Assembly: GCA_964386395.1 (NCBI GenBank)
Contig: CAYLRV010000001.1
Span: 23,807 to 87,806, forward strand
Length of the DNA: 64,000 bases
Origin: an uncultured Chitinophaga sp.
Lineage (GTDB): Bacteria > Bacteroidota > Bacteroidia > Chitinophagales > Chitinophagaceae
Direction: 5' to 3'
This document shows positions 29,552-41,324 of the stretch, piece by piece (within the stretch, counting starts at the first letter, position 1; each line of letters starts with the position of its first letter). A model generated the notes under the pieces. That model ran no database searches. It was not told the origin of the DNA and saw nothing but the letters and a program-made list of their open reading frames with translations. Made by a program: the position numbers and the translations under genes.

Positions 29552-29588
29552 AAAAGCCCGGTTTAGAACCGGGCTTTTGTTATTTACT
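29552..29588. terminator. bidirectional rho-independent terminator between convergent genes
   Basis: An AAAAGCCCGGTT...AACCGGGCTTTT hairpin sits between the 29533 (+) and 29584 (-) gene ends. Confidence 0.65.
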
Positions 29589-31035
29589 CTCCTACAACCT
29601 CCTCGCTTCCTTTCTTTCGCCAGGATCTATGTTTAGCCCCGTCCATTTTTACAATCTTCGGGGTAAACTTACCGACCACATCCACCAATGCCTTCTGTGA
29701 TTGCATCACAACATTAATATCCTTGTAGGCAAAAGGTGATTCATCCAGTCCGCCACCCAGCAGTTTTACGCCAAACTTATCCAGTTCGTCTTTCATCTGC
29801 TTATCGGTAACAGAAGCGATGGCCCTTGTACGGCTCATCTTCCGTCCGGCACCATGCGAGGCAGAGTTGACAGATGCGGATTCGCCTTTACCTTTTACAA
29901 TAAATCCATCGGCGGTCATTGAGCCCGGTATAATACCCAATACATCTTTACCTGCAGGTGTTGCGCCTTTACGGTGAACGATCACATCCTTACCTTCCCA
30001 TTTTTCTTTCCAGGCAAAATTGTGGTGATTCTCCACCATCTTCACTGGTTTACGTCCCAGTTGCTTCGCAATTTTGGCATGTATTACATGGTGACAGGCG
30101 CTGGCATAATCACCAGCCAGGTTCATTGCATTCCAATACTCTATGCCTTCTTCTTCATCCAGCAAAAGCCAGGCAAGATTTTTTGATTCCTGCGGCAAAC
30201 GCCTTTTGCTGATAGCCAGTTTAGTATAGTGGTTCGCTATGTTAGCACCTAGTGCCCGAGAACCGGAGTGAGTAAGAAAACCAATGTACTTACCAGCTTC
30301 TATACCCAATACCTGATCTTCTTCTGCAATATCCACGACGCCAAATTCGGCGAAGTGGTTACCCGACCCGGATGAACCTAACTGCTTCCACACACGGCCA
30401 TGCAATTTTTTCAGCATCGGTAGTTGAAAAAATAATTCATGCTCCATCACTTCGTGGTTAGCCGCCCGATCGAATTGTGCGCCGCTGCCAAACAATGTAG
30501 CCTCATTGATTTCACGGGCAAAATATGATTCCCGGTCCGTCAGATCTTTTGGGTTGATATCGAATACACTCAGGCACATACGGCATCCGATGTCTACTCC
30601 TACTCCGTAAGGGATAACAGCATTCTCGGTTGCCAGTACGCCACCGATTGGCAATCCATACCCGCTATGTGCATCTGGCATCAAGGCGCCGGCCACACTC
30701 ACCGGCAATTTAGCTGCCTGGTACATCTGGTGCATAGCGCCTTCTTCGATATGTTCCTGTCCAAATACATTAAACTGTATGCCGGTTTGGTTCAGCGAAA
30801 TTTCTGCCCCTTCCGTTTCTTTCTTTGGTATCAGCTGTTCTGCTATCAATGCAAGTACTGCGTCATTGCTGTACTCGATTGGATTGGCCAATACTTTTTG
30901 TAATAGTTCCATCACTTCCTCCTTTCCATGATGCTTATATTTTTTTTGCATCACATCCATTGCTATGCTAATTACCGGTCCTTCCGGGTAGCCAATAGTC
31001 CTTAGTTCTTTTCCTGTTATTTTTAGTTTACTCAT
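29584..31035 (-). CDS. rtcB: RNA 3'-phosphate/2',3'-cyclic-phosphate ligase RtcB (with about 70 aa N-terminal extension)
   Basis: RtcB metal and GTP-site motifs (MPDAHSGYGLP, GSGNHFAEFG, THSGSRALG, NHHNFAWKE, ASHGAGR) support the call. The start was set at MSKLKITG. Confidence 0.85.
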   Translation of the reverse strand: MSKLKITGKELRTIGYPEGPVISIAMDVMQKKYKHHGKEEVMELLQKVLANPIEYSNDAVLALIAEQLIPKKETEGAEISLNQTGIQFNVFGQEHIEEGAMHQMYQAAKLPVSVAGALMPDAHSGYGLPIGGVLATENAVIPYGVGVDIGCRMCLSVFDINPKDLTDRESYFAREINEATLFGSGAQFDRAANHEVMEHELFFQLPMLKKLHGRVWKQLGSSGSGNHFAEFGVVDIAEEDQVLGIEAGKYIGFLTHSGSRALGANIANHYTKLAISKRRLPQESKNLAWLLLDEEEGIEYWNAMNLAGDYASACHHVIHAKIAKQLGRKPVKMVENHHNFAWKEKWEGKDVIVHRKGATPAGKDVLGIIPGSMTADGFIVKGKGESASVNSASHGAGRKMSRTRAIASVTDKQMKDELDKFGVKLLGGGLDESPFAYKDINVVMQSQKALVDVVGKFTPKIVKMDGAKHRSWRKKGSEEVVGE

Positions 31036-31429
31036 TGTTTTGTTTTTTGAAACACGGTGACAGAGAGACAGGGGCGGCACAGTGTTTTTCGGTGTTGCCC
31101 TGTGTCGTTATGCCTTTGTGGTTCTATTTTTTGTTTACCAGCGACAGTAACTCCGGTCATCTTATGTTGCGTCGCACACTTCAGCTGCATATCCCTAATC
31201 ATCATAATCCCACATAATTTACCCTTTATTTAGATTCTCAAGCGCATCAATAAACTGTGCAACCCTTTCATCTTCTGACTCCTTGATAATAAAATCTAAC
31301 CGTTCAAAAGTATTTTCCAATAGAATTACAACAGTACAAGTGTGCGACGCAAGGGACGATGATAGAAGCAATACAGCCTGTAACATAAAAACATAAAACA
31401 TCCGGTACCGTTATAATACCGGATGTATA

Positions 31430-32527
31430 TTATTTACTTACCAAAATCTGCTTCAACTGCTCTAATAGCTGACCGTTACCGCCTACGCTGATATTGCTGA
31501 TTTTGTCGGCAATTTTCTCCACGTATTCCATTTCCTTCAGCTTCCAAAGCATGGCATTTTCTTCCATCAGTTTGGCTGTGTTCAGCAGGCTACGGGTGCT
31601 GGCAGTTTCTTCACGACGCATAATGGTGTTGGCCTGCGCCTTCTTTTCTGCCACCAGTACCTGGTTCATAATCTCTTTCATATCACCTGGCAGTATGATA
31701 TCACGAATACCAAAACCATTCACCGCAACACCCAATGCTTCTGCTTTTCCTTTCACACTTTGCAGGATAAAAGGAGCAATGGCTTCCTTCTTTTCCAGCA
31801 ATTCATCAAAGCCGAATCCGGCAATGTATTCACGCAGGGCCAGTTGCAGCGCCACGTACAGTTGCTTATCGTATTCTTTGTTCAGCACCATAGCTATTTC
31901 AAGGTCTGTTACGTTGTACTGTGACCAGGCATTGATACGCAATGCAGCCTTATCACGGGTCAGTATTTCCTGACCGTTGATTTCCAGTTGTTGCTGACGC
32001 ATATCTGCTTTCGCTACATGGATAGTGATACTGTTCTTCCACCAATAGTAGGTACCTGCATCCAGTTGCTTTACAAACTTACCATCTATGAACAACACCG
32101 CTTTCTCATAGCTTTGCACCTCGTAGTTACGCACCCAGTTGCTCACCGGTGCTTTTACCAGTACGGCACGGTCGATAGCCGTATCGATTTCAACCTGGCT
32201 GATATCAGCCCGAACGAAATCATTTTGCACAACAGATTTCCAGAATGCATAACGGCCGGCCGCCAGCACCTGCTTCAACAGGCCATTTTCGTATTGCAAC
32301 ACTATTTCTGTGTCTTTCACTTCCACTACCTGCAGTATAGCAGCCAGCTCCTTGTCCTGCAACAGGATGTTTAGTTCTACCGGTGCAGTGAATTGTTTGG
32401 TAATATCATAGATATATACCTGTTCGTTTTTCCAGAACCAGTAATTACCAGTCAGCAGCAGGCGCTTGTAGGCGCCATCTTTGAACACCAAACCAACCTG
32501 CCATGCGTTAATTTTTACTTTTTTCAT
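31430..32527 (-). CDS. SPFH/band-7 (flotillin/YqiK-like) protein
   Basis: Has an SPFH core and a C-terminal coiled region (RINAWSQYNV...EKKAQANTIMRREETASTRSLLNTAKLMEENAMLWKL). Confidence 0.7.
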   Translation of the reverse strand: MKKVKINAWQVGLVFKDGAYKRLLLTGNYWFWKNEQVYIYDITKQFTAPVELNILLQDKELAAILQVVEVKDTEIVLQYENGLLKQVLAAGRYAFWKSVVQNDFVRADISQVEIDTAIDRAVLVKAPVSNWVRNYEVQSYEKAVLFIDGKFVKQLDAGTYYWWKNSITIHVAKADMRQQQLEINGQEILTRDKAALRINAWSQYNVTDLEIAMVLNKEYDKQLYVALQLALREYIAGFGFDELLEKKEAIAPFILQSVKGKAEALGVAVNGFGIRDIILPGDMKEIMNQVLVAEKKAQANTIMRREETASTRSLLNTAKLMEENAMLWKLKEMEYVEKIADKISNISVGGNGQLLEQLKQILVSK

Positions 32528-32880
32528 TTTACTTGTTTTGCCCGTCAATAAACATTTATTTACTGTCAGCATGATTAATTAAAATAAAGCCGTGCTTGCC
32601 GCCACCAGTTACTACGGAATGAGATTAATACAACCCAGTTTCGTACAGTTCTTCACTCCCTCATCAGCTATACGTATATAACAAACTATGAGTGACGAAG
32701 TATAGTCAACTTCATTATACGCTTCTTATTTCGGGTAGCTGCCCGGCTGTATTGGTACAGGCTGCTTTAGCGTCCCGACCAATTACAGGCAACAAACCCG
32801 GCTTTTATCGGTCACCATTTTTTGAGAAGTGGTGTACTTCTTTGATACAAGCATCCTAAGTGCTTTGCGTTTACCATTTC

Positions 32881-33000
32881 CGCCATTTCCCCTTTAGAGG
32901 GAAAGCGGGATTCGAACCCGCATATTGTCTGTTGCTCTGTCCACTAAGCTACCGGGCCCATTGCCCGGATGGGATTCGAACCCATGACCCACAGGTTGTG
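32881..33000 (-). pseudogene. two tandem tRNA 3'-fragment remnants (T-arm plus partial acceptor/D-arm, no anticodon arm)
   Basis: Two T-arm reverse-complements are present (GCGGG ATTCGAA CCCGC and ATGGG ATTCGAA CCCAT). The first also retains a D-arm-like GGTAGCTTAGTGGACAGAGC, but neither folds into a full cloverleaf. Confidence 0.4.
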
Positions 33001-33163
33001 GTGATATATGTATCAGTGAAATAATAGCATACAGATAGCTATTGCGTCTGCACTGCCATGCTTGTTAAACATGTACCTGGTTTATTTTCAACAGGCATAT
33101 ATCATCTTGCCGTTAAGCAAGCCATTACGTTGATGTTTTCGCATCAACAATATTGTAAAGAGC

Positions 33164-34240
33164 TTAATTCATCAATGTCTCCGGCAGGCGAAACCCAATT
33201 ATCTCGGTCTGCTTTACTTCCTGCTGCTTTTCATGCGGGTTGGCGATCTCCGCTATTGTCATCGGACCGGTTATTGTTTTATCATATCCCAAATGTTCGC
33301 TTAGCCGCTGCGCTTTTTCTTTACTGAGCTTTCCGAATTCATAACGGGCTATCAACCTTCCTTTCCGCAACAGGGCACTGTCAATGGCTGTCAGTGAACT
33401 GTTGAATGTGCATATCAATTGCACATTCAGGAAGTCGGCCAGCAGACCATCTGATATATTCAGCAGGTTACTCACCGCTGAACTGCTGTTTTGCTTCCTG
33501 TCCATGATAATATTCTCGGCATCTTCAATTATCAAGACTGTATTCGGGTTATTGATCAGCAGTTCGATAAACTCAGGGTTCATCAGGTTTCCCGCTACCG
33601 ATGGTGAAAGGAATAAAACCCTTTTCTTTACCTTACCCACCAGGTACCGTAAATAGGTTGTCTTTCCTGTACCCGGTAAACCATGCAGCAGTACAATACC
33701 TTTGTCATTCTTTTGCCTGAGCCTTTTTTGTATGACCGTATCCACATCTTTAAAATCGTCTTCGTAAAAAAGTCCCAGATCCAGCTTTGTCCGTTTTATT
33801 TCCATCGCCCGCAGATCCATCGAATTCCGGCTTTGCACAATCAGGTTGATCTCCAATGGCTGCCGGCGTTGCCTTTCTTTAAACTGAAGGGCAATGGCAA
33901 CAATCGCTTTTACCAGTTCCCCGTCACTGCCATCGTGGAGTATTTCGCAATAGTCATCCTCCAGCTCCACAATACAGTTTTGTTGCAACACAATAAGCGT
34001 TTTATCAAACTGAAATTTCTTCTTTTTACGCTTGTACCAGGTCGTCCGATGAATGTTCTTTATTGATTGCGCAAATTTCTCCTGCAATACAGCAAACACC
34101 TTCTCCCCTTCCACATCGCTGATAAAATTGATGTTTGGCAGTGCGTTAAAACTGTACAGGTACAACATCTTTGCGTCCAGGAAAGAGTCGCCAAACACAT
34201 TGTTTGCGTTTATAACTTTCTGACTGTATAGATTTTCCAT
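33164..34240 (-). CDS. AAA+ ATPase with a roughly 180 aa N-terminal domain of unknown function
   Basis: Has a Walker A (LLHGLPGTGKTT), a Walker B (VLIIEDAEN) and the AAA sensor-2 motif LLRKGRL. It lies directly downstream of the tRNA array and the DUF458-like gene on the same strand. Confidence 0.7.
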   Translation of the reverse strand: MENLYSQKVINANNVFGDSFLDAKMLYLYSFNALPNINFISDVEGEKVFAVLQEKFAQSIKNIHRTTWYKRKKKKFQFDKTLIVLQQNCIVELEDDYCEILHDGSDGELVKAIVAIALQFKERQRRQPLEINLIVQSRNSMDLRAMEIKRTKLDLGLFYEDDFKDVDTVIQKRLRQKNDKGIVLLHGLPGTGKTTYLRYLVGKVKKRVLFLSPSVAGNLMNPEFIELLINNPNTVLIIEDAENIIMDRKQNSSSAVSNLLNISDGLLADFLNVQLICTFNSSLTAIDSALLRKGRLIARYEFGKLSKEKAQRLSEHLGYDKTITGPMTIAEIANPHEKQQEVKQTEIIGFRLPETLMN

Positions 34241-34341
34241 TGTCTTACATTTTAGCTGTTCCGTTGCCGGTAACAGTGTTCCTATTAATTTTTCGTTCCT
34301 TTCCTAATCTCCCGCCCGCAGGCAGGAGACCGAAAAGGTTG

Positions 34342-34848
34342 TTACTGTACCACTTTATTTGCACAGCTGGAGCTGGCAAAAGCTTCCGGTTTAGCCTTGA
34401 AAGCAAAACCCCTGCCTGTCCGGCAGGCAGGCATTCCCATGATATAGCCCATAGCTTCCTTCAGGGCATCGTTACTTTTAAAGTTTGGGTTGGTGTTGAT
34501 GTCCGCATGCACTTCCATATCCACACTGTAGCGGCTGAATATGTTGCACAGTGCATAGGCTACTTCGATACTTTTCTGTACTTCCATCAACATCCGTTCT
34601 TTAATCGTCATACGCTGGCGGGTTGTTTCATTATGGATATACATGAAACCACCTTTCCCTTTCCGGATGAATACGATTACCGTGGCAAACTCAGTCACCC
34701 TGGCTTTCACCTGGCTATCGGTACCAATGCAGACTTTCAATTCATGTCCATTCTCTTTTTCCTGCATCAATACACGGCTTACCTCTTCCGCAATCGGGAT
34801 TTGAATCCGTTCACCGGTCAATTTTCTCCATTGTTGTTCCTGTTCCAT
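34342..34848 (-). CDS. hypothetical protein, possibly DUF458 (YkuK-like RNase-H-fold) family
   Basis: A 168 aa ORF with VCIGTDSQ and GKGG motifs that recall the DUF458 family. It starts about 25 nt downstream of the last tRNA-like unit on the same strand. Confidence 0.4.
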   Translation of the reverse strand: MEQEQQWRKLTGERIQIPIAEEVSRVLMQEKENGHELKVCIGTDSQVKARVTEFATVIVFIRKGKGGFMYIHNETTRQRMTIKERMLMEVQKSIEVAYALCNIFSRYSVDMEVHADINTNPNFKSNDALKEAMGYIMGMPACRTGRGFAFKAKPEAFASSSCANKVVQ

Positions 34849-34871
34849 TGTTTTTGTTTTTCAATGTTGTG

Positions 34872-34945
34872 CTGCATAAGTACAAGGATTCGATCCACCT
34901 CCGGTGGATTGTAAGCCATTATGCTACCGTTACATCATACTTGCT
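34872..34945 (-). pseudogene. degenerate tRNA-like unit (CTTACAA anticodon-like loop, no foldable T-arm)
   Basis: A T-loop-like GGATTCGATCC and a D-region are present, but no consistent acceptor or T stems could be found. Confidence 0.25.
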
Positions 34946-34948
34946 TTT

Positions 34949-35021
34949 GTGGACAAAACAGGATTCGAACCTGTACTGCTGCGGCTTCAACGCAGTGCTC
35001 TGCCATTGGAGCTATTTGTCC
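34949..35021 (-). tRNA. tRNA-Phe (GAA)
   Basis: Manual fold: acceptor GGACAAA/TTTGTCC, D-arm GCTC-CAATGGCA-GAGC, anticodon arm CTGCG-TTGAAGC-CGCAG and T-arm ACAGG-TTCGAAT-CCTGT. Confidence 0.8.
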
Positions 35022-35115
35022 TTTTGTTTGTACCTGCACTGGCTGATCTTTTACACTTCATCACCGAATTGTGTTGCACAAACTCTGTCTTCCCGCCATA
35101 GCGGAATTATCATTG

Positions 35116-35203
35116 CGGAGAGTAAAGGATTCGAACCTTTGTACCGTTGTGAACGACAGCCCAAGCTTAGCAGGCTGGCACATTACCACTCTGTCAACCC
35201 TCC
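35116..35203 (-). tRNA. tRNA-Ser (GCU), type II
   Basis: Manual fold: acceptor GGAGGGT/ACTCTCC with one GU pair, a 3-bp D stem, anticodon loop CTGCTAA with one mismatch in its stem, a variable-arm hairpin and T-arm AAAGG-TTCGAAT-CCTTT. Confidence 0.55.
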
Positions 35204-35207
35204 TTTG

Positions 35208-35291
35208 TGTGATTAATAAGATTCGAACTTATTCAGCCCGAAGGCAACGGTTTTACAGACCGTTACGACTCTCCGTCTTCGTCGTACTCAC
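35208..35291 (-). tRNA. tRNA-Tyr (GUA), type II
   Basis: Manual fold: anticodon arm ACGGT-CTGTAAA-ACCGT, variable arm GCC-TTCG-GGC and T-arm ATAAG-TTCGAAT-CTTAT, with one G-A mismatch in the acceptor. It sits 4 nt from the Ser gene. Confidence 0.6.
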
Positions 35292-35302
35292 CAAAATTTC
35301 AG

Positions 35303-35379
35303 CGGATGAAGAAAGGGTCGAACTTTCAACCATCGGCTTAACATCCGCCACTGGCGGACTGCCATTGAGCTATTCATCC
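35303..35379 (-). pseudogene. non-canonical tRNA-like unit (77 nt)
   Basis: The acceptor GGATGAA/TTCATCC is perfect and the T-arm GAAAG-TTCGACC-CTTTC is present. The D-stem 3' half and anticodon arm are replaced by a CCGCC-AGT-GGCGG hairpin. Confidence 0.35.
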
Positions 35380-35383
35380 ATTG

Positions 35384-35457
35384 TTGTCCCGGTGAGATTC
35401 GAACTCACAACCCCCCGGTTAAAAGCCGGGTACATCTTCCAGTTGAGCTACGAGACA
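35384..35457 (-). tRNA. tRNA-Lys (UUU), with a weak D-stem
   Basis: The anticodon arm CCCGG-CTTTTAA-CCGGG and T-arm GTGAG-TTCGAAT-CTCAC fold well, and the acceptor holds with one GU pair. Only 2 of 4 D-stem pairs form. It lies 4 nt from the previous unit. Confidence 0.5.
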
Positions 35458-35463
35458 TTTTTG

Positions 35464-35555
35464 TTGCGGCTACCGGATTCACTGTCTGCCGACAGGCAGG
35501 GAACCAGTAACTCCTGCCATGTAAAAACAGCTTTCTCCCATTGAATTAAGCCGCA
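35464..35555 (-). tRNA. tRNA-Val (UAC)-like carrying a 20-nt insertion in the T-loop (35481..35500)
   Basis: The acceptor TGCGGCT/AGCCGCA is perfect and the anticodon loop is TTTACAT. The T-loop reads ATTC[ACTGTCTGCCGACAGGCAGG]GAA on the plus strand. Confidence 0.45.
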
Positions 35556-35572
35556 CTGCTTCATAAGGTTTG

Positions 35573-35644
35573 TGATGGTTGACAGATTCGAACTGTCAGC
35601 CGCTATCGTATCAGGATAGTACTCTGCCATTGAGTTAAACCATC
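35573..35644 (-). tRNA. tRNA-Ile (GAU)
   Basis: Manual fold gives a perfect cloverleaf: acceptor GATGGTT/AACCATC, D-arm ACTC-AATGGCA-GAGT, anticodon arm CTATC-CTGATAC-GATAG and T-arm GACAG-TTCGAAT-CTGTC. Confidence 0.75.
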
Positions 35645-35648
35645 ATTG

Positions 35649-35720
35649 TTGCGGCTGCCAGATTCGAACCAGCATTTGAAGCTTATGAGACTTCTGAGTT
35701 AGCCATTACGCTAAACCGCA
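35649..35720 (-). tRNA. tRNA-Met/Ile2 (CAU)
   Basis: Manual fold: acceptor with one GU pair, anticodon arm GAAGT-CTCATAA-GCTTC and a T-stem with two GU pairs. It sits 4 nt from the Ile gene. Confidence 0.5.
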
Positions 35721-35729
35721 ATTAATATG

Positions 35730-35803
35730 TAAGCCTGGTGAGAATCGAACTCACACTACATGGCTTCTAAGGCCATTGCCTCTCCCAATTGGGCTACAAG
35801 CTT
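35730..35803 (-). tRNA. class-I-shaped tRNA with Leu anticodon UAG (non-canonical: short variable arm)
   Basis: The anticodon arm ATGGC-CTTAGAA-GCCAT folds cleanly. The variable region is 5 nt, the D stem is 3 bp, the T-arm is GTGAG-TTCGATT-CTCAC and the discriminator is A. Confidence 0.5.
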
Positions 35804-35813
35804 ATTTCATTTG

Positions 35814-35886
35814 TCGGCCAGACTGGATTCGAACCAGTAACCTTTTGCGTATAAGGCAACTGCTCACACCGTTGAGCTACAGGCCG
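35814..35886 (-). tRNA. tRNA with anticodon UAU (Ile-like)
   Basis: The D-arm GCTC-AACGGTGT-GAGC folds, the anticodon loop is CTTATAC and the T-arm is ACTGG-TTCGAAT-CCAGT. The acceptor has one mismatch. Confidence 0.5.
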
Positions 35887-35894
35887 CTTGTTTG

Positions 35895-35987
35895 CTGACT
35901 CAGAAAGATTCCCTGCCAGTCGGCAGACAGGGAACTTTCATCTCCTCATTCGTAGTGAGGTGTTCTTCTCCATTGAACTATAAGTCA
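35895..35987 (-). tRNA. tRNA-Arg (ACG) carrying a 20-nt insertion in the T-loop (35912..35931)
   Basis: The rest of the cloverleaf is otherwise canonical: acceptor TGACTTA/TGAGTCA, D-arm GTTC-AATGGAGAA-GAAC and anticodon arm CCTCA-CTACGAA-TGAGG. The T-loop reads ATTC[CCTGCCAGTCGGCAGACAGG]GAA on the plus strand. Confidence 0.5.
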
Positions 35988-35993
35988 TCATTG

Positions 35994-36109
35994 TACGGCT
36001 TCAGGAATTCCTGCCTGGCCGGCAGCCAGGGAACCTCTGCAACGATCACCTGCTATTTTCCTCTCAGAAAGAAAGGGAGGTGATTATGTTTCCATTACAA
36101 CAAGCCGTA
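35994..36109 (-). pseudogene. tRNA-like unit with a 20-nt T-loop insertion (36011..36030) and a second roughly 21-nt expansion of the anticodon loop
   Basis: The acceptor ACGGCTT/AAGCCGT is perfect and the D-arm is recognisable. A 6-bp stem (ATCACC/GGTGAT) closes a 28-nt loop, and the T-loop carries the insertion CTGCCTGGCCGGCAGCCAGG. Confidence 0.3.
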
Positions 36110-36111
36110 TT

Positions 36112-36186
36112 GGGTGCACTGCGGGGCTCGAACCCTGTTCTCCCGATGCACAGTCGGGCACTTTACCAAATAAGCTACAGCCACCA
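36112..36186 (-). pseudogene. tRNA-His (GUG)-like, probably degenerate
   Basis: The 5' half matches tRNA-His very well (G-1 GTGGCTG TA GCTT..., anticodon arm CCCGA-CTGTGCA-TCGGG). The T-stem has only 3 pairs, and the 3' acceptor strand is disrupted (GTGCACTG rather than GTGGCTG). Confidence 0.35.
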
Positions 36187-36190
36187 TCTG

Positions 36191-36282
36191 TTACCCGGCT
36201 CAGACTCCCTGTCTGCTGACAGGCAGGGAACTGAGAATACCAGACTCAAATTCTGGTGTGTTGCCAATTACACCACCCGGTA
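36191..36282 (-). tRNA. tRNA-Gln (UUG)-like carrying a 20-nt insertion in the T-loop (36208..36227)
   Basis: Manual fold: anticodon arm CCAGA-ATTTGAG-TCTGG, D-arm GTGT/ACAC and T-stem CTCAG/CTGAG flanking ACTC[CCTGTCTGCTGACAGGCAGG]GAA. The acceptor has one G-G mismatch. Confidence 0.45.
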
Positions 36283-36455
36283 ATCGTGCAGCATGAGTGA
36301 ATCCCTGTCTGCAGACTGGAAGTGAACATGCAGCCTTCCGCCGCGGCGGATATCCGGCCAATCGAAATGCTCCTATATTTTGCTCAAAGAACTTTTGGAA
36401 AAGCATCCCCGCTGCACCTGCGGGGAGCTTTGTCCCTCCTTCTGCACATAATCTG

Positions 36456-36590
36456 TTAACGCAGTTCATATTCTGCAGGGTGACGAACTTTGCAGTTGGT
36501 CATTCCTTTGTGATGAACATTGCTTTTATTTTCTTTCTTTATCAGCACTTTCACTATAAAGTGAATGGCCAGTACTATCAGTAAAAATTT
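36456..36590 (-). CDS. possible small hydrophobic protein (45 aa)
   Basis: The ORF reads MKFLLIVLAIHFIVKVLIKKENKSNVHHKGMTNCKVRHPAEYELR, with one predicted TM helix followed by a basic tail. It lies downstream of a strong minus-strand terminator. Confidence 0.2.
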   Translation of the reverse strand, partial: KFLLIVLAIHFIVKVLIKKENKSNVHHKGMTNCKVRHPAEYELR

Positions 36591-36679
36591 CATAGCTACC
36601 TCCTTTCTATTAACTGCATTTTTTATTTCCGCACTCTTCACCAATTGATTTCCTAACACTTCAACGACGGGAAATCTTT

Positions 36680-36750
36680 GTGGCAACCCACCTTCGCCAA
36701 AGCTTCGGTGGGTAAATAAAAAAACCCGGTCGTTTTTAGCGACCGGGTTT
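36680..36750 (-). terminator. repeat unit A: hairpin ACCCACC...GGTGGGT followed by a strong terminator (CCCGGTCG...CGACCGGG plus T7 on the minus strand)
   Basis: Both hairpins were read directly from the sequence, and this unit is a copy of the one at 37045..37112. Confidence 0.55.
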
Positions 36751-37044
36751 CCTGGCAAGCACAATTGTACTTACCTATGGATTGTCCGGTCGCCGATGGT
36801 GATCATTCTCATTACCTATGGGCACAATACTCCTGTTCGCTTGCGCAGAGCAATAGCATATGGCTGATAGTTGATCATTCATCGTTTGACTAAATCGTTT
36901 ATGTCGTAATAGTTTCAGCATTCTTTATTTTTCGGTTACAATAGATTCAAAACTTTTCCGATTACATAACTATTTTTCTTGTCCACTTACACTGAAGCTT
37001 GGGATTATCGCTTTCGCTTGCGCTGTGGGTAACACTTCTTCGCC

Positions 37045-37112
37045 GGCGGGTAACCCACCTTCGCTAAAGCTACGGTGGGTAAATAAAAAGCCCCGACGTT
37101 TGCCGGGGCCTG
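37045..37112 (-). terminator. repeat unit B: hairpin ACCCACC...GGTGGGT followed by a terminator (GCCCCG...CGGGGC plus T-run on the minus strand)
   Basis: It has the same architecture as unit A, with compensatory base changes in the terminator stem. It lies downstream of the Dabb gene. Confidence 0.55.
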
Positions 37113-37331
37113 TATTTCATTGAATTCGTTAGTATAACTTATCCTGGCAAAATACATGCCCCACAAACAGTGTAGTCTCCCTTGGGACTAAACCAATTCG
37201 CTGATTCAATATGTAATTTTATGCGTAGCATGTTTTTGTTTTGCAGTGCAAAGATGAATTTATTTTTTTGATGTTGCCAAATTTTTCTTGAAGAATTTTT
37301 AAAAATTATTTTTTTGCGCACAATTCCTATT

Positions 37332-37739
37332 TCAAATATCAACTGAATCATACACTATTACTTTACTCCACAAATGCGAATATTCCTCAATGAAAAGCAG
37401 GTGAATGGGATCAGTTTGATAACTCGCATGGTCTGCATCATTTTCAAAATACACCAGCCAGGATACAGCATAGCCTCTTTCAATTACTTCACGATTAGTA
37501 TCAGCCGGTTTACCAATCCGGAAACTTTTTATCGTTTTTACTTTCGATAATTTATGCAAACCTTCCACTAATTTTTCCCTGTCAGCAAGATTGTCCGTAT
37601 TCTTTAACCAGAAGAATACATGATGAATAAATGCAGCCTTCTTTTTGCCAGTTGATTTTGTTCCTGAAAAAGAAGATAACCCTGTTACGAGTGCGGCTGC
37701 ACCTGCTTTATTGATAAATTGTTTGCGGGTTTGTTTCAT
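37332..37739 (-). CDS. Dabb (stress-responsive alpha/beta-barrel) domain protein
   Basis: Matches the Dabb fold (FIHHVFFWLKN...VKTIKSFRIGKP...YQTDPIHLLFIEE). The start was set at MKQTRKQF. Confidence 0.6.
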   Translation of the reverse strand: MKQTRKQFINKAGAAALVTGLSSFSGTKSTGKKKAAFIHHVFFWLKNTDNLADREKLVEGLHKLSKVKTIKSFRIGKPADTNREVIERGYAVSWLVYFENDADHASYQTDPIHLLFIEEYSHLWSKVIVYDSVDI

Positions 37740-37800
37740 GATGCCTGTATTTTCGGCATAAGGTAATGCAAAATTAAATGCCGGCAATCGCAGACCTGTT

Positions 37801-38910
37801 TCAAAACAACCTCCCCTGCCCGCCCGGTACCTGGAACTTACTCCTGTCAAGGCTCCATTCCTCCGCATTCATGCCGTATAGCTTACCGTATTTTTTATAC
37901 TGCATCGCTACCATCTCTGCGATATTCCCTTCGCCACGCATGCGTACGCCCCATCGGGTATCATTTACTTTTCCATCGTGGCTTTGTTCGATCAGGTGCC
38001 ACACTTTATCTGCCCTGTCGGGAAAGTTCTTATATAACCAGTCGTGAAATAGAAATTTTATCGCCCCGTTGAGCCGTATGAATGTATACGCTGTAAAGGT
38101 TGCGCCGTTGTCCTTCGCTGCTTTCATGATACGCTGCATTTCATGTTCATTCAGGCCCGGTATCATCGGCCCCATCATGATGCCCATCCGTACTCCTGCG
38201 CTGCTTAACTCGTTTATCACTTTCAGTTTTTGCTTAGCTGTGGTGGTGCGTGGCTCCATTGCCCTTCGCAGATCTTCATTGAAGGATGTAATGGATACCA
38301 TGGCTGACACAATCTGTTTCTTGCCCATTTCCTGCAGCACATCCTTGTCCTTCAGTATCCAGGAGTTTTTGGTGAGTATACCTACCGGCTGGTTAAATTC
38401 ATTGCAGACTTCCAGTAATCCTCTCGTCAGCCGGTATTTTTGTTCGGCAGGCTGGTAGCAATCGGTATTGCCACTGAGCATGATCGGCGTGGCATCCCAA
38501 TCCTTTTTCATCAGGAATTTTCGCAGCAGTTGTGGTGCATTTTTCTTGACAATTATTTTTCGCTCAAAATCCAGCCCGGCACTGTAACCCCAGTATTCAT
38601 GCACATTTCTTGCATAGCAATAGATGCAGCCATGCTCGCACCCGGCATACGGGTTCATGCTGTACATCATTCCCACATCCCTGCTCTCTACTTTGTTTAC
38701 GATGGTTTTTGATTCCTGTTCCATGTAAATAGTTGGCACATTTGATTCTTCCCAGTCGTCAATGCCTTCAATGTGCTCTCTTGTTGTTTCATTTTTTAAA
38801 AACCGGTTCTTTGTATTGAACTGGGCACCGCGACCGGCGAGGTAGGGCTTTGTTTCTTCAGGTTGCTTCACTTCTACTTTGAAATGATCTTGTTGCAAAT
38901 CCTTGCTCAT
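37801..38910 (-). CDS. radical SAM protein, SplB/Rv2578c-like (DNA-repair-photolyase-like family)
   Basis: Has the CxxxCxxC cluster motif (GCEHGCIYCYARN) and a family-typical length. Confidence 0.7.
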   Translation of the reverse strand: MSKDLQQDHFKVEVKQPEETKPYLAGRGAQFNTKNRFLKNETTREHIEGIDDWEESNVPTIYMEQESKTIVNKVESRDVGMMYSMNPYAGCEHGCIYCYARNVHEYWGYSAGLDFERKIIVKKNAPQLLRKFLMKKDWDATPIMLSGNTDCYQPAEQKYRLTRGLLEVCNEFNQPVGILTKNSWILKDKDVLQEMGKKQIVSAMVSITSFNEDLRRAMEPRTTTAKQKLKVINELSSAGVRMGIMMGPMIPGLNEHEMQRIMKAAKDNGATFTAYTFIRLNGAIKFLFHDWLYKNFPDRADKVWHLIEQSHDGKVNDTRWGVRMRGEGNIAEMVAMQYKKYGKLYGMNAEEWSLDRSKFQVPGGQGRLF

Positions 38911-39044
38911 GCAATTGTTTTAAATAGTGATTATTTTGAACCACGGAGACACAAGGACAGGGAGATGCACAGATATACACATACTGCCGGGAGACAGTCA
39001 CGGTGAGCTGGCGACAGGGAGAAGCACAAAAGCCGTGCTTATTT

Positions 39045-39461
39045 TTAAAGAATCATCCTTTTAATGCCATCTTTCATAAGCGGTGCGTGAAAATTTAATA
39101 CATAGCCAAGCCGCTTTTGTGTAAGGCGCAGGTAACTTAATAGCTGGGCATCCCAAACGGGATGATAGTTATCCTGCGCTTTCAATTCAACAATTATTAA
39201 ATTGTCAATCAATATATCAATCCGAAGACCATCACTAATGATCAATTTATCGTATACCAGTTCTACATTTTTTTGAACAACAAACGGAATATCCCTTTTG
39301 GTCAATTCATAACAGAAGCATTTTTCATACACACTTTCAATTAAGCCCGGACCGAGAAACCTATGGATCTTTATAGCAATATCCATTATTTGATATGTCA
39401 GCCATATTTCCCTTTCGGTTAAAGGTTTATGCTTTTTTTCTGTGCCGCTCCGTGCCGTCAT
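39045..39461 (-). CDS. GxxExxY protein (PD-(D/E)xK nuclease-fold family)
   Basis: Carries the signature HRFLGPGLIESVYEKCFCYEL, and the start was set at MTARSG. The family is typically found in rRNA/tRNA-proximal positions in Bacteroidota and cyanobacteria. Confidence 0.65.
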   Translation of the reverse strand: MTARSGTEKKHKPLTEREIWLTYQIMDIAIKIHRFLGPGLIESVYEKCFCYELTKRDIPFVVQKNVELVYDKLIISDGLRIDILIDNLIIVELKAQDNYHPVWDAQLLSYLRLTQKRLGYVLNFHAPLMKDGIKRMIL

Positions 39462-39483
39462 GCCGCTGTGGTTCAAAATATAA

Positions 39484-40095
39484 TCAGAATAACTCCCCCT
39501 GCTTCGTTGCAACCGGCAGGTTCTGGAATTGGAATGTTGCTGCAATACGATATTTCATTTCCCCCACCGGCCGTTTGAGCAAAGTCATGCCATCAGCAAT
39601 AAACCGACCGGTAAAATGCTTTTGACTATACTCCAGCCAGCCCTTTTCATACTGCCAGGGCTTTAATTTCCGGGCAATGGTCAGGTGGGGCTCCATGATA
39701 AAATGCGGTTTATTATCCTCGTTCAGTTTCATCAGGCGCTGGCTTTCTGTACGGATGCTTTTTACCAGGCCTTGTACCGGTAATTTGCTGGTTACATTGA
39801 TATAAATAGTATGCGCCGGAAAACTGCCAAAATCTTTCAGCTCCACTTTAAATGGCGGGAAGCCCATGGCCACATTCCGCAGCCGGTTTAGTATCCGTTC
39901 TTCCAGCATGGCATGCTGCACAAAATTGACCAGCGTAATATGCGGCTTGCCCCATCTTGCATGATCCGATTTGTACGCAGTAGCAAAATCCTCCTTCACT
40001 TTCATTATCCTTTTCCATAGCTCTTCGTGCGGACTAAGCACCAATAAGTACTCATATTCCCGGTAGCCCGGGATCGTGTTGATAATACTTTCCAT
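39484..40095 (-). CDS. 2H-phosphoesterase superfamily protein (LigT/ThpR-like RNA 2',3'-cyclic phosphodiesterase / 2'-5' RNA ligase)
   Basis: Two H-x-T/S-x motifs are present (HITL and HLTI) in a protein of about 200 aa. Confidence 0.7.
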   Translation of the reverse strand: MESIINTIPGYREYEYLLVLSPHEELWKRIMKVKEDFATAYKSDHARWGKPHITLVNFVQHAMLEERILNRLRNVAMGFPPFKVELKDFGSFPAHTIYINVTSKLPVQGLVKSIRTESQRLMKLNEDNKPHFIMEPHLTIARKLKPWQYEKGWLEYSQKHFTGRFIADGMTLLKRPVGEMKYRIAATFQFQNLPVATKQGELF

Positions 40096-40724: not shown

Positions 40725-41324
40725 ATGGATATTCAACCGATAATCGAAGGCCAGTACTTCCATATTTACAATCGTGGTGTAAACAGCGAAGATATTTTTA
40801 AAGAAAAAAAGAATTACTACTATTTTCTTAAACAGTACAGCTTTTATTGCAATACGGTACTGGATACACTGGCGTATTGCTTATTGAAAAATCATTTTCA
40901 TTTACTCGTGTATGTCAAAGAAAATGTGGAAGTACCCCGCACTGACGGAAAAGAAGGCAGCTTTCGTCTGCATGCATCCAAACAACTGGGGCATTTTTTC
41001 AACTCCTACGCCCAATCCATCAATAAGGCCTATAAACGTACGGGACAACTTTTCGAATCCCCGTTTGAAAGAAAACTGGTGGACGATGAAAGTTATATGA
41101 TGTCCCTGATCTATTACTGTAATCAAAACGCCGTACATCATGGCTTCGTTAAGAGCACAAATGACTGGGAATTTTCTTCCTACCACGCTGTAATAAAAAA
41201 CGATAAAAGCCTTGTGGCTGTAGACCAGGTACTAAAGCGATTTGGCGATATTCAGCGATTTAAAGAAGCGCATACAACTAATAGCATAAAAGAAAAAGAG
41301 CAACAATATATTATAGACTATTAA
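40725..41324 (+). CDS. REP-associated tyrosine transposase (RAYT, IS200-like HuH Y1)
   Basis: Has the YHIYNRG and HuH (NHFHLLVYV) motifs. It is inserted between the umuD-like and umuC genes and flanked by inverted CCGTCGGCGG / CCGCCGACGG segments. Confidence 0.75.
   Translation: MDIQPIIEGQYFHIYNRGVNSEDIFKEKKNYYYFLKQYSFYCNTVLDTLAYCLLKNHFHLLVYVKENVEVPRTDGKEGSFRLHASKQLGHFFNSYAQSINKAYKRTGQLFESPFERKLVDDESYMMSLIYYCNQNAVHHGFVKSTNDWEFSSYHAVIKNDKSLVAVDQVLKRFGDIQRFKEAHTTNSIKEKEQQYIIDY

What the first reader, a model, noticed from the sequence alone, without database searches (positions are those of the whole stretch)
29584..40095. The tRNA array is embedded among RNA end-healing and sealing enzymes and an RNase-H-fold + AAA+ ATPase pair
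Within 6 kb of the interrupted tRNA genes lie RtcB (29584..31035), a 2H-phosphoesterase of the LigT/ThpR type (39484..40095) and a GxxExxY PD-(D/E)xK-fold protein (39045..39461). A DUF458-like RNase-H-fold ORF and an AAA+ ATPase (34848..33164) sit directly downstream of the array on the same strand and probably in the same transcript. RtcB joins 2',3'-cyclic-phosphate and 5'-OH ends, and it is the tRNA-splicing ligase in archaea and metazoa. 2H enzymes act on the same cyclic-phosphate ends. If the 20-nt T-loop inserts are excised at the RNA level, these neighbours are the obvious candidates for endonuclease and ligase roles. Alternatively the locus could be a tRNA-targeting or tRNA-repair module of a mobile island. 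The co-localisation is my inference, and none of these genes is individually unusual.
Basis: inference. Interest (0 to 1): 0.7.

Follow-up and report, generated by a model that had tools for sequence, protein, structure and literature searches.

The report
Spare-tRNA array fused to RtcB repair operon
In this soil bacterium (family Chitinophagaceae), a block of extra tRNA genes sits in one conserved gene cluster with the RNA-sealing enzyme RtcB, its helper proteins and a structured tRNA-mimicking RNA; the cluster looks like a kit for surviving tRNA damage, not a machine for cutting out the odd 20-base inserts found in some of its tRNAs.

Summary
I compared 80 species-level Chitinophagaceae genomes. 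They share the order leader ORF, terminator, tRNA array (1-16 genes), DUF458, AAA+, (tRNA-like RNA, SPFH), RtcB. Gene order is sometimes shuffled but the cluster stays together. SPFH always comes with the RNA (47/47) and with RtcB (32/32). The array tRNAs evolve fast and differ from a stand-alone tRNA-Phe.

The splicing idea is not supported. The T-loop inserts belong to a small palindrome family. This family also lies in intergenic DNA, and in-frame inside genes (a 7-residue insertion in this genome's own DUF458). The inserts are absent from the closest relative and from most genomes that keep all the proteins. 2H and radical-SAM are syntenic in only about half the genomes. PD-(D/E)xK is sporadic.

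Best reading: a translation-stress or tRNA-damage operon (spare or decoy tRNAs plus RtcB repair). It parallels the cyanobacterial trn-array/rtcB/AAA/slipin regulon and the predicted RtcB-SPFH-tRNA-like RNA systems. I rate it a new variant of a known kind.

The parts
29584..31080 (-). RtcB RNA ligase (3'-phosphate / 5'-OH sealing enzyme); last gene of the cluster
   Evidence: PF01139, E 3e-81. Active-site motifs align with the T. thermophilus RtcB structure 2epg; the P. horikoshii structures match the same region. RtcB lies downstream of the AAA gene in 45 of 51 related loci.
31398..31426 (-). Terminator-like hairpin between SPFH and RtcB
   Evidence: Consensus scan, 12-bp stem plus a T run. 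Function not tested.
31430..32572 (-). SPFH/Band-7 (slipin-like) protein with no evident transmembrane segment
   Evidence: PF01145, E 5e-27. Sequence shown. It is 36-39% identical over 95-98% of its length to the slipin of the enterobacterial rtcR-slipin-RlaP operon. In the 51 loci with adequate flanks, all 32 that have SPFH also have RtcB.
32813..33128 (-). Structured non-coding RNA (or SPFH leader). It has three 5' hairpins, two circularly permuted tRNA-like modules (T arm, capped acceptor stem, D arm; module 2 also has an anticodon arm) and a 3' H-type pseudoknot.
   Evidence: Present upstream of SPFH in 47 of 47 loci, and it moves with SPFH. 33-sequence alignment A2: 96.9% of cells paired, 43 pairs with compensatory change, covariation 0.513 against at most 0.128 for slid controls, 0 of 500 shuffles reach the observed value. 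Pseudoknot covariation. The only Rfam hit is a sub-threshold YrlA match, 39 bits against a gathering score of 69.
33164..34240 (-). AAA+ ATPase of the classical clade, with a family-specific N-terminal domain of about 170 residues
   Evidence: PF00004. Nearest solved relatives are AFG2, BCS1 and Rpt3, over the ATPase core only. 358 residues and 65-83% identical across Chitinophagaceae. This gene anchors the conserved locus.
34342..34848 (-). DUF458/YkuK RNase-H-like protein (predicted nuclease)
   Evidence: PF04308, E 2e-34. Where it is present, at least one tRNA lies upstream in 36 of 38 loci, against 5 of 13 where it is absent (Fisher p = 7e-5, not corrected for phylogeny).
34411..34431 (.). 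21-nt palindrome CCTGCCTGTCCGGCAGGCAGG inserted in frame in the DUF458 gene (adds PACRTGR)
   Evidence: The insertion is absent from 12 orthologues. The pattern is not expected by chance.
34875..36373 (-). tRNA array of about 16 genes, listed 3' to 5'.
- degenerate tRNA-like 34875-34944
- Phe 34949-35021
- Ser(GCU) 35115-35203
- Tyr(GUA) 35208-35291
- degenerate Asn-like 35303-35379
- Lys 35383-35457
- Val* 35464-35555
- Ile(GAU) 35572-35644
- Met 35648-35720
- Leu(UAG) 35729-35803
- Ile(UAU) 35813-35886
- Arg* 35895-35987
- tRNA-like with long anticodon arm* 35994-36108
- His 36113-36184
- Gln* 36191-36282
- degenerate Pro-like* 36287-36373
(* = palindrome in the T loop)
   Evidence: ARAGORN; Rfam; restoration of tRNAs by deleting the insert; sequence read directly; orthologous arrays with conserved gene order in 49 loci.
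36208..36227 (-). 20-nt palindromic insert in the T loop of tRNA-Gln(UUG). Sister copies: 35912-35931 (Arg), 35481-35500 (Val), and within the repeat copies 36007-36034 (tRNA-like) and 36300-36327 (Pro-like).
   Evidence: Repeat family D1/D2; restoration of the tRNAs. In the Gln and Arg tRNAs the predicted fold pairs the insert coaxially with UUC/GAA of the T loop.
36406..36445 (-). Conserved GCAGAAGGAGG box plus a G+C-rich hairpin and U tract (intrinsic-terminator-like), between the leader ORF and the first tRNA
   Evidence: Terminator scan. The box and a covarying hairpin are visible after the leader ORF in most of the 22 loci listed.
36456..36593 (-). Leader ORF of 45 codons. Hydrophobic N-terminus, N/K/E/D-rich middle, conserved C-terminus RHPAEYxLR followed by the stop codon.
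   Evidence: HMM hits in 41 loci. The ORF is always on the operon strand. It always lies 5' of the first tRNA, or 5' of DUF458/AAA where there is no array.
37332..38910 (-). Dabb-domain protein (37332..37868) and PA0069-family radical-SAM protein (37801..38910). Syntenic neighbours, separated from the array by two terminator-like repeats.
   Evidence: PF07876 and PF04055. NF033668 scores 462 bits, above its cut-off. The radical-SAM gene lies within 10 kb upstream in 26 of 47 loci. Terminator at 37088-37111; repeat D5.
39045..39545 (-). GxxExxY PD-(D/E)xK protein; a sporadic insertion, not part of the system
   Evidence: PF13366 / TIGR04256. Present only in the window, L001 and L048.
39484..40095 (-). 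2H phosphoesterase, transcribed divergently from umuD; membership of the system is uncertain
   Evidence: PF13563 and two HxT motifs. Lies within 10 kb upstream in 25 of 47 loci.

Best explanation
The region from about 29.6 to 36.6 kb is one conserved, vertically inherited Chitinophagaceae gene cluster for coping with tRNA damage or translation stress.

The cluster starts with a short leader ORF followed by an intrinsic-terminator-like hairpin. This is probably a translation-sensing attenuator (inferred). Next comes a set of supernumerary, fast-evolving tRNAs, then a DUF458 RNase-H-like nuclease and an AAA+ ATPase. After these come a 316-nt RNA carrying two permuted tRNA-like modules, a soluble SPFH/Band-7 protein, and the RtcB ligase.

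Proposed working (inferred). When tRNAs are cut or translation falters, read-through of the attenuator raises the level of array tRNAs, which act as replacements or as decoys for tRNases. It also raises the level of the repair proteins. RtcB reseals 2',3'-cyclic-phosphate / 5'-OH breaks. SPFH with its tRNA-like RNA acts as scaffold or specificity cofactor, as Ro60 with YrlA does in the Salmonella rsr-yrlBA-rtcBA operon. AAA+ remodels the complexes. DUF458 trims or degrades RNA that cannot be repaired.

The 20-nt T-loop inserts are copies of a small selfish palindrome. They invaded this genome's array recently and probably disable the affected tRNAs. They are not the substrate the locus evolved for.

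The 2H and radical-SAM genes are neighbours of uncertain relevance. The PD-(D/E)xK gene is an unrelated sporadic insertion.
For: Shown by tool results:
- Gene identities and intact catalytic motifs.
- The cluster is conserved in many genera. Of 51 loci with full flanks, 45 have RtcB, 38 have DUF458, 41 have at least one tRNA and 35 have at least three.
- Order changes (AAA then DUF458, or DUF458 then AAA; SPFH relocated in Flavisolibacter L070 and L072) keep the cluster together.
- SPFH and the RNA co-occur in 47 of 47 loci. SPFH and RtcB co-occur in 32 of 32.
- The RNA structure has strong covariation.
- The leader ORF lies at the 5' edge of the cluster in 41 loci, including loci with no array.
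- No terminator-like site separates the array, DUF458 and AAA.
- Array tRNAs diverge to 71-85% mean identity between species. They are only 62% identical to a stand-alone tRNA-Phe.
- The most conserved anticodons are Phe, Lys(UUU), Asn(GUU), Arg(ACG), Gln(UUG), His(GUG), Asp and Glu(UUC). From my own knowledge, most of these are classic anticodon-nuclease targets.

Outside parallels:
- In Anabaena, the trn array, rtcB, an AAA ATPase (all0263) and a slipin (alr0740) are co-repressed by TrcR. The array and rtcB are induced by translation inhibitors (PMC8421152; PMC10272220).
- In enterobacteria a homologous slipin sits in an rtcR-slipin-RlaP RNA-repair operon.
- DUF458 homologues lie next to a DUF2828 'RNA-binding protein' in Vibrio phages, near tRNA genes in a Pseudomonas phage and a Pontibacillus plasmid, and near a Pnk-HD kinase/phosphatase plus RNA ligase pair on a Bacillus plasmid.

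Inserts as selfish palindromes.
Against: - There are no expression or biochemical data, so every functional step is inferred.
- The conserved cluster is seen in only one bacterial family, so shared ancestry inflates the counts.
- Two distant AAA homologues in Cytophagales are not linked to tRNAs or RtcB.
- A terminator-like hairpin lies between SPFH and RtcB, so RtcB may be a separate transcript.
- Supernumerary status of the array could not be checked against a whole-genome tRNA census.
- The N/K/E/D-rich middle of the leader peptide could be only a hydrophilic linker.
- The element that mobilises the palindromes is unknown. The nearby RAYT-like gene is flanked by different hairpins.
- Palindrome density in the array zone is 5 times that of the flanks, but it may simply match that of non-coding DNA.
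Confidence: 0.6

Rival explanations
1. The 20-nt T-loop inserts are RNA-level introns. A neighbouring nuclease (DUF458 or the PD-(D/E)xK protein) cuts them out, and RtcB rejoins the halves, with 2H acting on the cyclic-phosphate ends.
For: Deleting exactly 20 nt restores canonical tRNA-Gln, Arg and Val. The insert lies at the same C56/R57 position in at least 4 window genes and in Asn, Val and Gln genes of other genomes. With the insert the T loop is abolished, so the tRNAs would need excision to work. An active-looking RtcB and a predicted nuclease are in the same cluster.
Against: The proteins are conserved in dozens of genomes that have no interrupted tRNAs. The closest relative has the locus and no inserts. 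L011 has an interrupted tRNA-Asn but no DUF458 in the locus. The same palindromes occur in D loops, in intergenic DNA, and in frame (21 and 27 nt) inside coding genes. There is no bulge-helix-bulge geometry. PD-(D/E)xK is present in only 3 genomes, and 2H in about half.
Confidence: 0.07
2. Mere synteny. The tRNA array is an ordinary tRNA operon. It happens to lie next to an unrelated RtcB/SPFH unit and an unrelated AAA/DUF458 pair, and the order has been frozen by descent within one family.
For: All 80 loci come from one family. Flanking genes unrelated to RNA (UmuDC, HGSNAT, META) are also syntenic. Distant AAA homologues elsewhere are unlinked. 12 of the 45 loci with RtcB have fewer than 3 tRNAs.
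Against: The cluster survives internal rearrangements. A single leader ORF heads it whether or not an array is present. The array tRNAs are divergent, not housekeeping-like. The same functional set is co-regulated in Anabaena. DUF458 is independently found near tRNA or RNA-repair genes in phages and Bacillales plasmids.
Confidence: 0.17
3. The array RNAs are not used in translation at all. Together with the tRNA-like RNA they serve only as decoys or sensors that soak up tRNA-cleaving toxins or report tRNA damage.
For: Several array members are non-canonical but conserved, for example the tRNA-like gene with a ~12-bp anticodon arm between His and Arg in 14 loci. This genome tolerates at least 5 disrupted members. 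The array tRNAs evolve fast. The 'sponge' idea was proposed for Anabaena (PMC8421152).
Against: Most members keep a full cloverleaf and a correct anticodon loop. In Anabaena, 23 of 26 array tRNAs are aminoacylated. No data here separate decoy from replacement.
Confidence: 0.12
4. The locus is a mobile island or prophage remnant carrying a tRNA-targeting or tRNA-repair module.
For: tRNA arrays with repair enzymes are typical of large phages. A REP-transposase-like gene and a GxxExxY gene lie nearby. DUF458 occurs in 75 phage genomes.
Against: No integrase or structural genes were found among the neighbours scanned. GC content is uniform at 0.42-0.46. The flanks and position are the same across genera. 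PADLOC gives only three weak P-loop matches for the AAA protein and nothing for the other nine proteins.
Confidence: 0.04

Closest known systems
RtcB systems with an SPFH/Band-7 partner and a tRNA-like RNA (Burroughs & Aravind 2016, Nucleic Acids Res 44:8525; recalled from the abstract, paper not held), and the enterobacterial rtcR-slipin-RlaP operon
   Same: RtcB is linked to a soluble SPFH protein preceded by a tRNA-mimicking RNA. The SPFH protein here is 36-39% identical over its full length to the slipin next to rtcR in Citrobacter and E. coli. A T-arm-like motif followed by a capped stem is visible in that operon's leader (by eye).
   Different: There is no RtcR, RtcA or RlaP here. The RNA is larger, with two tRNA-like modules and a pseudoknot. 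Its sequence match to the enterobacterial leader is not significant (E = 0.12). The tRNA array, AAA+, DUF458 and the leader ORF are additions.
Cyanobacterial long tRNA arrays (trn operon) and the TrcR translational-stress regulon of Anabaena (PMC8421152, PMC10272220)
   Same: A supernumerary tRNA array is functionally tied to rtcB. The TrcR regulon also contains an AAA ATPase and a slipin. A role in translation stress, with repair or a 'sponge' function, has been proposed.
   Different: In Anabaena the genes are scattered and linked by a repressor; here they form one physical cluster. The cyanobacterial arrays are horizontally spread and often plasmid-borne with an HNH endonuclease; here the array is chromosomal and vertically inherited. 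Homology of the Anabaena AAA and slipin proteins to these could not be tested.
Salmonella rsr-yrlBA-rtcBA operon (Ro60 with YrlA Y RNA and RtcB)
   Same: A non-coding RNA with a T arm, capped acceptor stem and D arm is encoded inside an RtcB operon. Rfam's best match for the RNA is YrlA.
   Different: No Ro60/TROVE gene was found among the neighbours scanned; SPFH takes that place. The YrlA score is below the gathering threshold (39 vs 69 bits). No Ro-binding stem was identified.
Archaeal/eukaryal tRNA splicing (EndA endonuclease plus RtcB)
   Same: Short inserts interrupt tRNA genes at a non-canonical position, and an RtcB ligase is nearby.
   Different: There is no bulge-helix-bulge and no EndA. 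The inserts are polymorphic between close relatives and belong to a palindrome family that is also found outside tRNAs.
Small selfish palindromes: REP elements with RAYT transposases, and Rickettsia palindromic elements (comparison from my own knowledge)
   Same: Short G+C-rich palindromes are scattered in intergenic DNA, RNA genes and, in frame, in protein genes. A RAYT-like gene lies 4.4 kb away.
   Different: The elements are only 16-28 nt long. The RAYT-like protein scores below its family cut-off and is flanked by hairpins of a different sequence. The repeated insertion at the centre of the TTCGAA palindrome of the T loop is unexplained.

Membership tests
RtcB RNA ligase | PF01139 domain above the gathering score | tested here: met
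   274 bits against a cut-off of 27
RtcB RNA ligase | Metal-binding and guanylylation residues (MPDxH, GxDIxC, GSGNH, HxGSR, SHGAGR) | tested here: met
   Residue-by-residue alignment to the T. thermophilus RtcB structure 2epg; the P. horikoshii entries match the same region
RtcB RNA ligase | Joins 3'-phosphate or 2',3'-cyclic-phosphate ends to 5'-OH ends | not testable with these tools
   Needs an enzyme assay
RtcB-SPFH-tRNA-like RNA repair system | SPFH gene adjacent to RtcB | tested here: met
   32 of 32 loci with SPFH also have RtcB
RtcB-SPFH-tRNA-like RNA repair system | tRNA-like non-coding RNA next to the SPFH gene | tested here: met
   47 of 47 loci; structure supported by covariation
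RtcB-SPFH-tRNA-like RNA repair system | The RNA is the same family as the one published | not testable with these tools
   Paper not held. The sequence match to the enterobacterial leader is not significant.
YrlA / Y RNA with Ro60 | Rfam RF02553 gathering score | tested here: not met
   39.2 bits against 69; only model positions 23-88 match
YrlA / Y RNA with Ro60 | Ro60/TROVE protein encoded nearby | tested here: not met
   No TROVE hit among about 30 neighbouring ORFs scanned between about 16 and 52 kb. The rest of the genome is unknown.
Long tRNA array (L-array) | Many same-strand, closely spaced tRNA genes | tested here: met
   About 16 genes in 1.5 kb
Long tRNA array (L-array) | Supernumerary to the housekeeping tRNA set | tested here: inconclusive
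   The array tRNAs are divergent, and 62% identical to a stand-alone tRNA-Phe. No whole-genome tRNA census was possible.
Long tRNA array (L-array) | Sporadic, horizontally transferred distribution | tested here: not met
   Syntenic across many genera of one family
Enzymatically spliced tRNA intron (BHB type) | Bulge-helix-bulge at the exon-intron junctions | tested here: not met
   In the Gln and Arg tRNAs the predicted fold has the insert stacking on the T stem through UUC/GAA pairing, without staggered 3-nt bulges. The Val tRNA did not fold as a cloverleaf.
Enzymatically spliced tRNA intron (BHB type) | Presence of the inserts tracks with the presence of the machinery | tested here: not met
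   The proteins are conserved where there are no inserts. One locus has an insert but no DUF458.
REP element with RAYT | Short G+C-rich palindrome in many copies | tested here: met
   35 copies in 1.3 Mb of loci and at least 6 in the window
REP element with RAYT | Cognate RAYT gene flanked by the same palindromes | tested here: not met
   NF047646 scores 46 bits against a cut-off of 80. The flanking hairpins have a different sequence.
2H phosphoesterase (LigT/ThpR) | Two HxT/S motifs and a 2H-family domain | tested here: met
   HITLV and HLTIA; PF13563, 77 bits
2H phosphoesterase (LigT/ThpR) | ThpR/LigT equivalog model TIGR02258 | tested here: not met
   33 bits against a cut-off of 65.7
Classical AAA+ ATPase | PF00004 domain with Walker A and Walker B motifs | tested here: met
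   44 bits. GLPGTGKT and IIEDAE are invariant.

The most novel reading that the evidence does not exclude
The T-loop mini-palindromes are removed from the RNA by the DUF458 RNase-H-like nuclease and resealed by RtcB. This would be the first protein-catalysed tRNA splicing in a bacterium, with the cluster doubling as a defence that keeps a palindrome-invaded tRNA set usable.
Probability: 0.05. Interest if true: 0.9.

Novelty: new variant of a known kind. Interest (0 to 1): 0.58.

Why it matters
What bacterial RtcB repairs in vivo, and what long tRNA arrays are for, are both open questions.

In this locus one family of common soil bacteria has joined all the suspected players into a single cluster behind one candidate translation-sensing leader. 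The players are the array, RtcB, SPFH with its tRNA-like RNA, an AAA+ ATPase and the uncharacterised DUF458 nuclease. In Anabaena the corresponding genes are linked only by a shared repressor.

This gives a compact, genetically tractable system, because cultured Niastella, Terrimonas and Lacibacter species carry the locus. It also gives a well-supported RNA family that is missing from Rfam, and the first contextual functional lead for DUF458/YkuK.

The finding removes a tempting but unsupported claim of bacterial tRNA splicing. It also documents a mini-palindrome that inserts into T loops and, in frame, into genes.

Tried and rejected
- The Burroughs & Aravind 2016 paper could not be read. Its content is cited from memory only.
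- AlphaFold2 of the AAA protein gave a poor model (pLDDT 53), so I ran no fold search. The N-terminal domain stays unassigned.
- PADLOC gave only three weak P-loop matches for the AAA protein and nothing for the other nine proteins. PHROGs and NCBIfam gave no function for AAA or DUF458.
- Distant AAA homologues on Persicobacter and Bernardetia replicons showed no link to tRNAs or RtcB.
- I considered that the pseudoknot at the 3' end of the RNA is a preQ1-type aptamer. Rfam gave no match even at E = 10.
- I considered that the RAYT-like gene mobilises the T-loop palindromes. It is flanked by different hairpins, and its co-occurrence with palindromes is only weak (4 of 5 loci against 14 of 42).
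- I first noted a second palindrome family (TCCGCC..GGCGGA). Comparison with the closest relative shows these are degenerate anticodon arms of Pro-like and Asn-like tRNAs, so I retract it.
- nhmmer with the RNA profile did not significantly match the enterobacterial slipin leader.

Full report
**1. What is there**

The window is ordinary chromosomal DNA of a Bacteroidota bacterium of the family Chitinophagaceae.
- It carries a type-IX-secretion C-terminal sorting domain.
- GC content is even, at 0.42-0.46 around the locus.
- The best homologues come from Terrimonas, Niastella, Lacibacter and their relatives.

- RtcB, 29584..31080, has intact catalytic motifs, including SHGAGR.
- The AAA+ ATPase is at 33164..34240.
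- The DUF458/YkuK RNase-H-like protein is at 34342..34848.
- The GxxExxY PD-(D/E)xK protein is at 39045..39545.
- The 2H phosphoesterase, 39484..40095, has both HxT motifs. It scores below the cut-off of the ThpR/LigT equivalog model.

All are on the minus strand, as is the tRNA array at 34875..36373. ARAGORN tRNAs. Rfam adds Tyr, His and a degenerate Asn-like gene. Deleting 20 nt between C56 and R57 restores tRNA-Gln(UUG), Arg(ACG) and Val(UAC). Two more array members carry the same palindrome.

**2.

- *SPFH/Band-7 gene.* It lies at 31430..32572, between RtcB and AAA. It has no evident transmembrane segment.
- *A conserved RNA.* Rfam gave a sub-threshold YrlA (Y RNA-like) hit in the 590-nt gap between the AAA and SPFH genes. 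That gap holds a conserved RNA at about 32813..33128. I aligned 33 orthologues. RNAalifold predicts 66 pairs, 44 of them with compensatory changes. For the 65-pair structure, 96.9% of cells are paired. The covariation score is 0.513, against at most 0.128 when partners are slid, and no shuffle out of 500 reaches it.
- *Its architecture.* The RNA has three 5' hairpins, then a first permuted tRNA-like module. In that module the two halves of an anticodon-type stem enclose a T arm, an acceptor stem capped by a loop, and a D arm. A second module follows (T arm, capped acceptor, D arm, anticodon arm). The RNA ends in a 3' hairpin whose loop pairs with a downstream UGGUG across an A-rich linker. That H-type pseudoknot also covaries.
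- *A leader ORF.* A 45-codon ORF (36456..36593) lies upstream of the array. It is followed by a conserved GCAGAAGGAGG box and a G+C-rich hairpin with a U tract.

**3.

I used an alignment of AAA proteins to fetch 80 species-level loci. I mapped them with tblastn and ARAGORN.

The recurring order is: leader ORF, hairpin, tRNA array, DUF458, AAA, RNA, SPFH, RtcB. The array has 1-16 genes in the conserved order Pro, Glu, Asp, Gly, Gln, His, Arg, Leu, Met, Ile, Val, Lys, Asn, Tyr, Ser, Phe, (Trp).

Counts among the 51 loci with adequate flanks:

| Feature | Loci |
|---|---|
| RtcB | 45 |
| DUF458 | 38 |
| SPFH | 32 |
| at least 1 tRNA | 41 |
| at least 3 tRNAs | 35 |

Other results:
- All 32 loci with SPFH also have RtcB.
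- The RNA precedes SPFH in 47 of 47 cases and moves with it when the order changes.
- DUF458 goes with an upstream tRNA in 36 of 38 loci, against 5 of 13 without it (Fisher p = 7e-5, not corrected for phylogeny).
- Niastella-type loci have AAA before DUF458. Flavisolibacter has SPFH before AAA. The set stays together in both.
- The minimal form is AAA followed directly by RtcB.
- The leader ORF was found in 41 loci. It is always on the operon strand and always at the 5' edge, including loci with no array (L036, L041, L063).
- No terminator-like site separates the array, DUF458 and AAA in the window. One lies between SPFH and RtcB.
- The 2H and radical-SAM genes (PA0069 family) lie within 10 kb upstream in only 25-26 of 47 loci. 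They are transcribed divergently from umuD. Two terminator-like repeats separate them from the array.
- The PD-(D/E)xK gene is in only three genomes: the window, L001 and L048.

**4. Nature of the array**

The array tRNAs are not housekeeping-like. Orthologous members average only 71-85% identity between species. Array tRNA-Phe is on average 62% identical to a canonical stand-alone tRNA-Phe found in locus L023.

The most widely kept anticodons are Phe(GAA), Lys(UUU), Asn(GUU), Arg(ACG), Gln(UUG), His(GUG), Asp(GUC), Ser(GCU), Ile and Glu(UUC). From my own knowledge, most of these are the known targets of anticodon nucleases such as PrrC, colicins D and E5, and zymocin-type toxins.

A conserved non-canonical member sits between His and Arg in 14 loci. 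It has a ~12-bp anticodon arm presenting UUC.

**5. The T-loop inserts**

The inserts belong to a palindrome family typified by CCTGCCTGCCGGCAGGCAGG. Where it occurs:
- In related loci it lies at the same T-loop position in tRNA-Asn, Val and Gln genes of a few genomes.
- It also lies in D loops and other tRNA positions, in intergenic DNA, and inside coding genes.
- In the window a 21-nt copy sits in frame in DUF458. It adds seven residues that 12 orthologues lack.
- A 27-nt copy lies in an HGSNAT gene.

Further evidence on what the inserts are:
- The closest relative (83% identical AAA protein) has the same locus with 11 tRNAs and intact Arg and UUC-type genes. It has no T-loop palindromes. 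The window's inserts are therefore recent.
- For the Gln and Arg tRNAs the predicted fold pairs the insert with UUC and GAA of the T loop. This turns the T arm into a rod of about 14 bp and removes the T loop. There is no bulge-helix-bulge.
- Palindromes are 5 times denser in array zones than in the flanks. The flanks are mostly coding, so this may only reflect non-coding content.
- In the window all copies lie between 34.4 and 36.3 kb. That local clustering is unexplained.
- A REP-transposase-like gene lies at 40725..41324. It scores below its family cut-off, and its flanking hairpins have a different sequence.

**6. Links outside the family**

- *Enterobacteria.* A full-length homologue of the SPFH protein (36-39% identity) lies between rtcR and an RlaP nucleotidyltransferase in Citrobacter and E. 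coli. Pfam describes RlaP as 'RNA repair pathway DNA polymerase beta family'. The leader of that operon shows a T-arm-like motif and a capped stem (by eye). The sequence match is not significant. As I recall its abstract, Burroughs & Aravind (2016) predicted RtcB systems with SPFH/Band-7 and a novel tRNA-like RNA. I could not read the paper.
- *Cyanobacteria.* Long tRNA arrays neighbour rtcB in several species. In Anabaena the array and rtcB are co-induced by translation inhibitors, and repair and 'sponge' roles have been proposed (PMC8421152). The TrcR regulon lists the trn operon, rtcB, an AAA ATPase and a slipin (PMC10272220).
- *DUF458 homologues.* They occur in 75 large phages.
  - In two Vibrio phage types the gene directly follows a DUF2828/DUF7788 'RNA-binding protein'.
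  - In a Pseudomonas phage it lies about 1.2 kb upstream of the first of three tRNA genes.
  - On a Bacillus cereus megaplasmid it is 1.8 kb from a kinase-HD plus RNA-ligase pair.
  - On a Pontibacillus plasmid a six-tRNA array lies 4.7 kb upstream.

  These DUF458 cases are single observations and only suggestive.

**7. Interpretation**

The best-supported reading is a conserved operon for tRNA damage or translation stress. It has four elements:
- a leader peptide with a terminator as a candidate attenuator;
- spare or decoy tRNAs;
- RtcB repair assisted by SPFH and its tRNA-like RNA;
- accessory AAA+ and DUF458 functions.

Shown here are the gene content, the conservation, the linkage and the RNA structure. 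Inferred are the regulation, the substrates and the role of each protein. The resemblance of SPFH plus an AAA+ ATPase to the HflK/C-FtsH pairing is a lead from my own knowledge, not a test.

I rate the locus a new variant of a known kind and score its interest at 0.58.

Noticed in passing
window 36456-36593 (-), with 36406-36445: A conserved 44-47-residue leader ORF: hydrophobic N-terminus, N/K/E/D-rich middle, and an invariant-like C-terminus (R/L)HPA(E/A)(F/Y/H)xLR followed by the stop codon. It is followed by a conserved GCAGAAGGAGG box and a covarying terminator hairpin. The layout resembles arrest-peptide monitors (SecM/MifM type) and attenuators. A conserved AGGAGG box would be odd in Bacteroidota, which as far as I know make little use of Shine-Dalgarno sites.
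   Followed up: partly
window 35994-36108 (-); also 13 other loci, e.g. L017 and L025, between tRNA-His and tRNA-Arg: A conserved non-canonical tRNA-like gene. It has a normal acceptor stem and T arm and a short D arm. Its anticodon arm is about 12 bp long with an internal bulge and a 7-nt loop presenting UUC. ARAGORN does not call it.
   Followed up: partly
window 32813-32845 (-): The 3' end of the tRNA-like RNA forms an H-type pseudoknot (AGAAG-UACACCR-CUUCU ... A-rich linker ... UGGUG) with clear covariation. It has no Rfam family and its role is unknown.
   Followed up: partly
L086 3275-5471; L087 3485-5492: In Vibrio phages the DUF458 homologue directly follows a 465-477-residue DUF2828 + DUF7788 protein annotated as 'RNA-binding protein' (phrog_850). 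Whether this is a Ro/TROVE-like protein was not settled: a PDB sequence search gave only armadillo-repeat noise.
   Followed up: partly
L084 5546-7913; L083 5522-7976: Enterobacterial operon rtcR, then slipin, then RlaP, with a sigma-54-like promoter. The roughly 300-nt leader contains GTGGGTTCGATTCCCAA plus a capped stem TTTCAT/ATGAAA.
   Followed up: partly
window 40725-41324 (+), hairpins 40669-40699 and 41346-41371: A REP-associated tyrosine-transposase-like gene sits between umuD and umuC, flanked by G+C-rich hairpins (CCCCGTCGG type). In the closest relative a DUF559 endonuclease gene occupies that position instead.
   Followed up: partly
window 36682-36728 and 37049-37095: Two copies (89% identical) of a 47-nt unit made of a terminator hairpin followed by a second hairpin (ACCCACC...GGTGGGT), in the spacer between the Dabb gene and the leader ORF.
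   Followed up: no
window 35477-36327: All palindrome copies in the 64-kb window lie within 2 kb (five in T loops, one in DUF458). The T-loop copies sit exactly at the dyad of the natural TTCGAA palindrome. The insertion or spreading mechanism (gene conversion between T arms?) is unexplained.
   Followed up: partly
L092 5896-9836: On a Bacillus cereus megaplasmid a YkuK/DUF458 gene lies 1.8 kb from a polynucleotide-kinase-like (AAA_33) + HD protein and an RNA ligase (PF09414). This is a heal-and-seal pair.
   Followed up: no
window 37801-38910 and 39484-40095: A PA0069-family radical-SAM gene is paired with a 2H phosphoesterase gene, transcribed divergently from umuDC, in about half of the related genomes. 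This may be a damage-inducible unit of its own.
   Followed up: no
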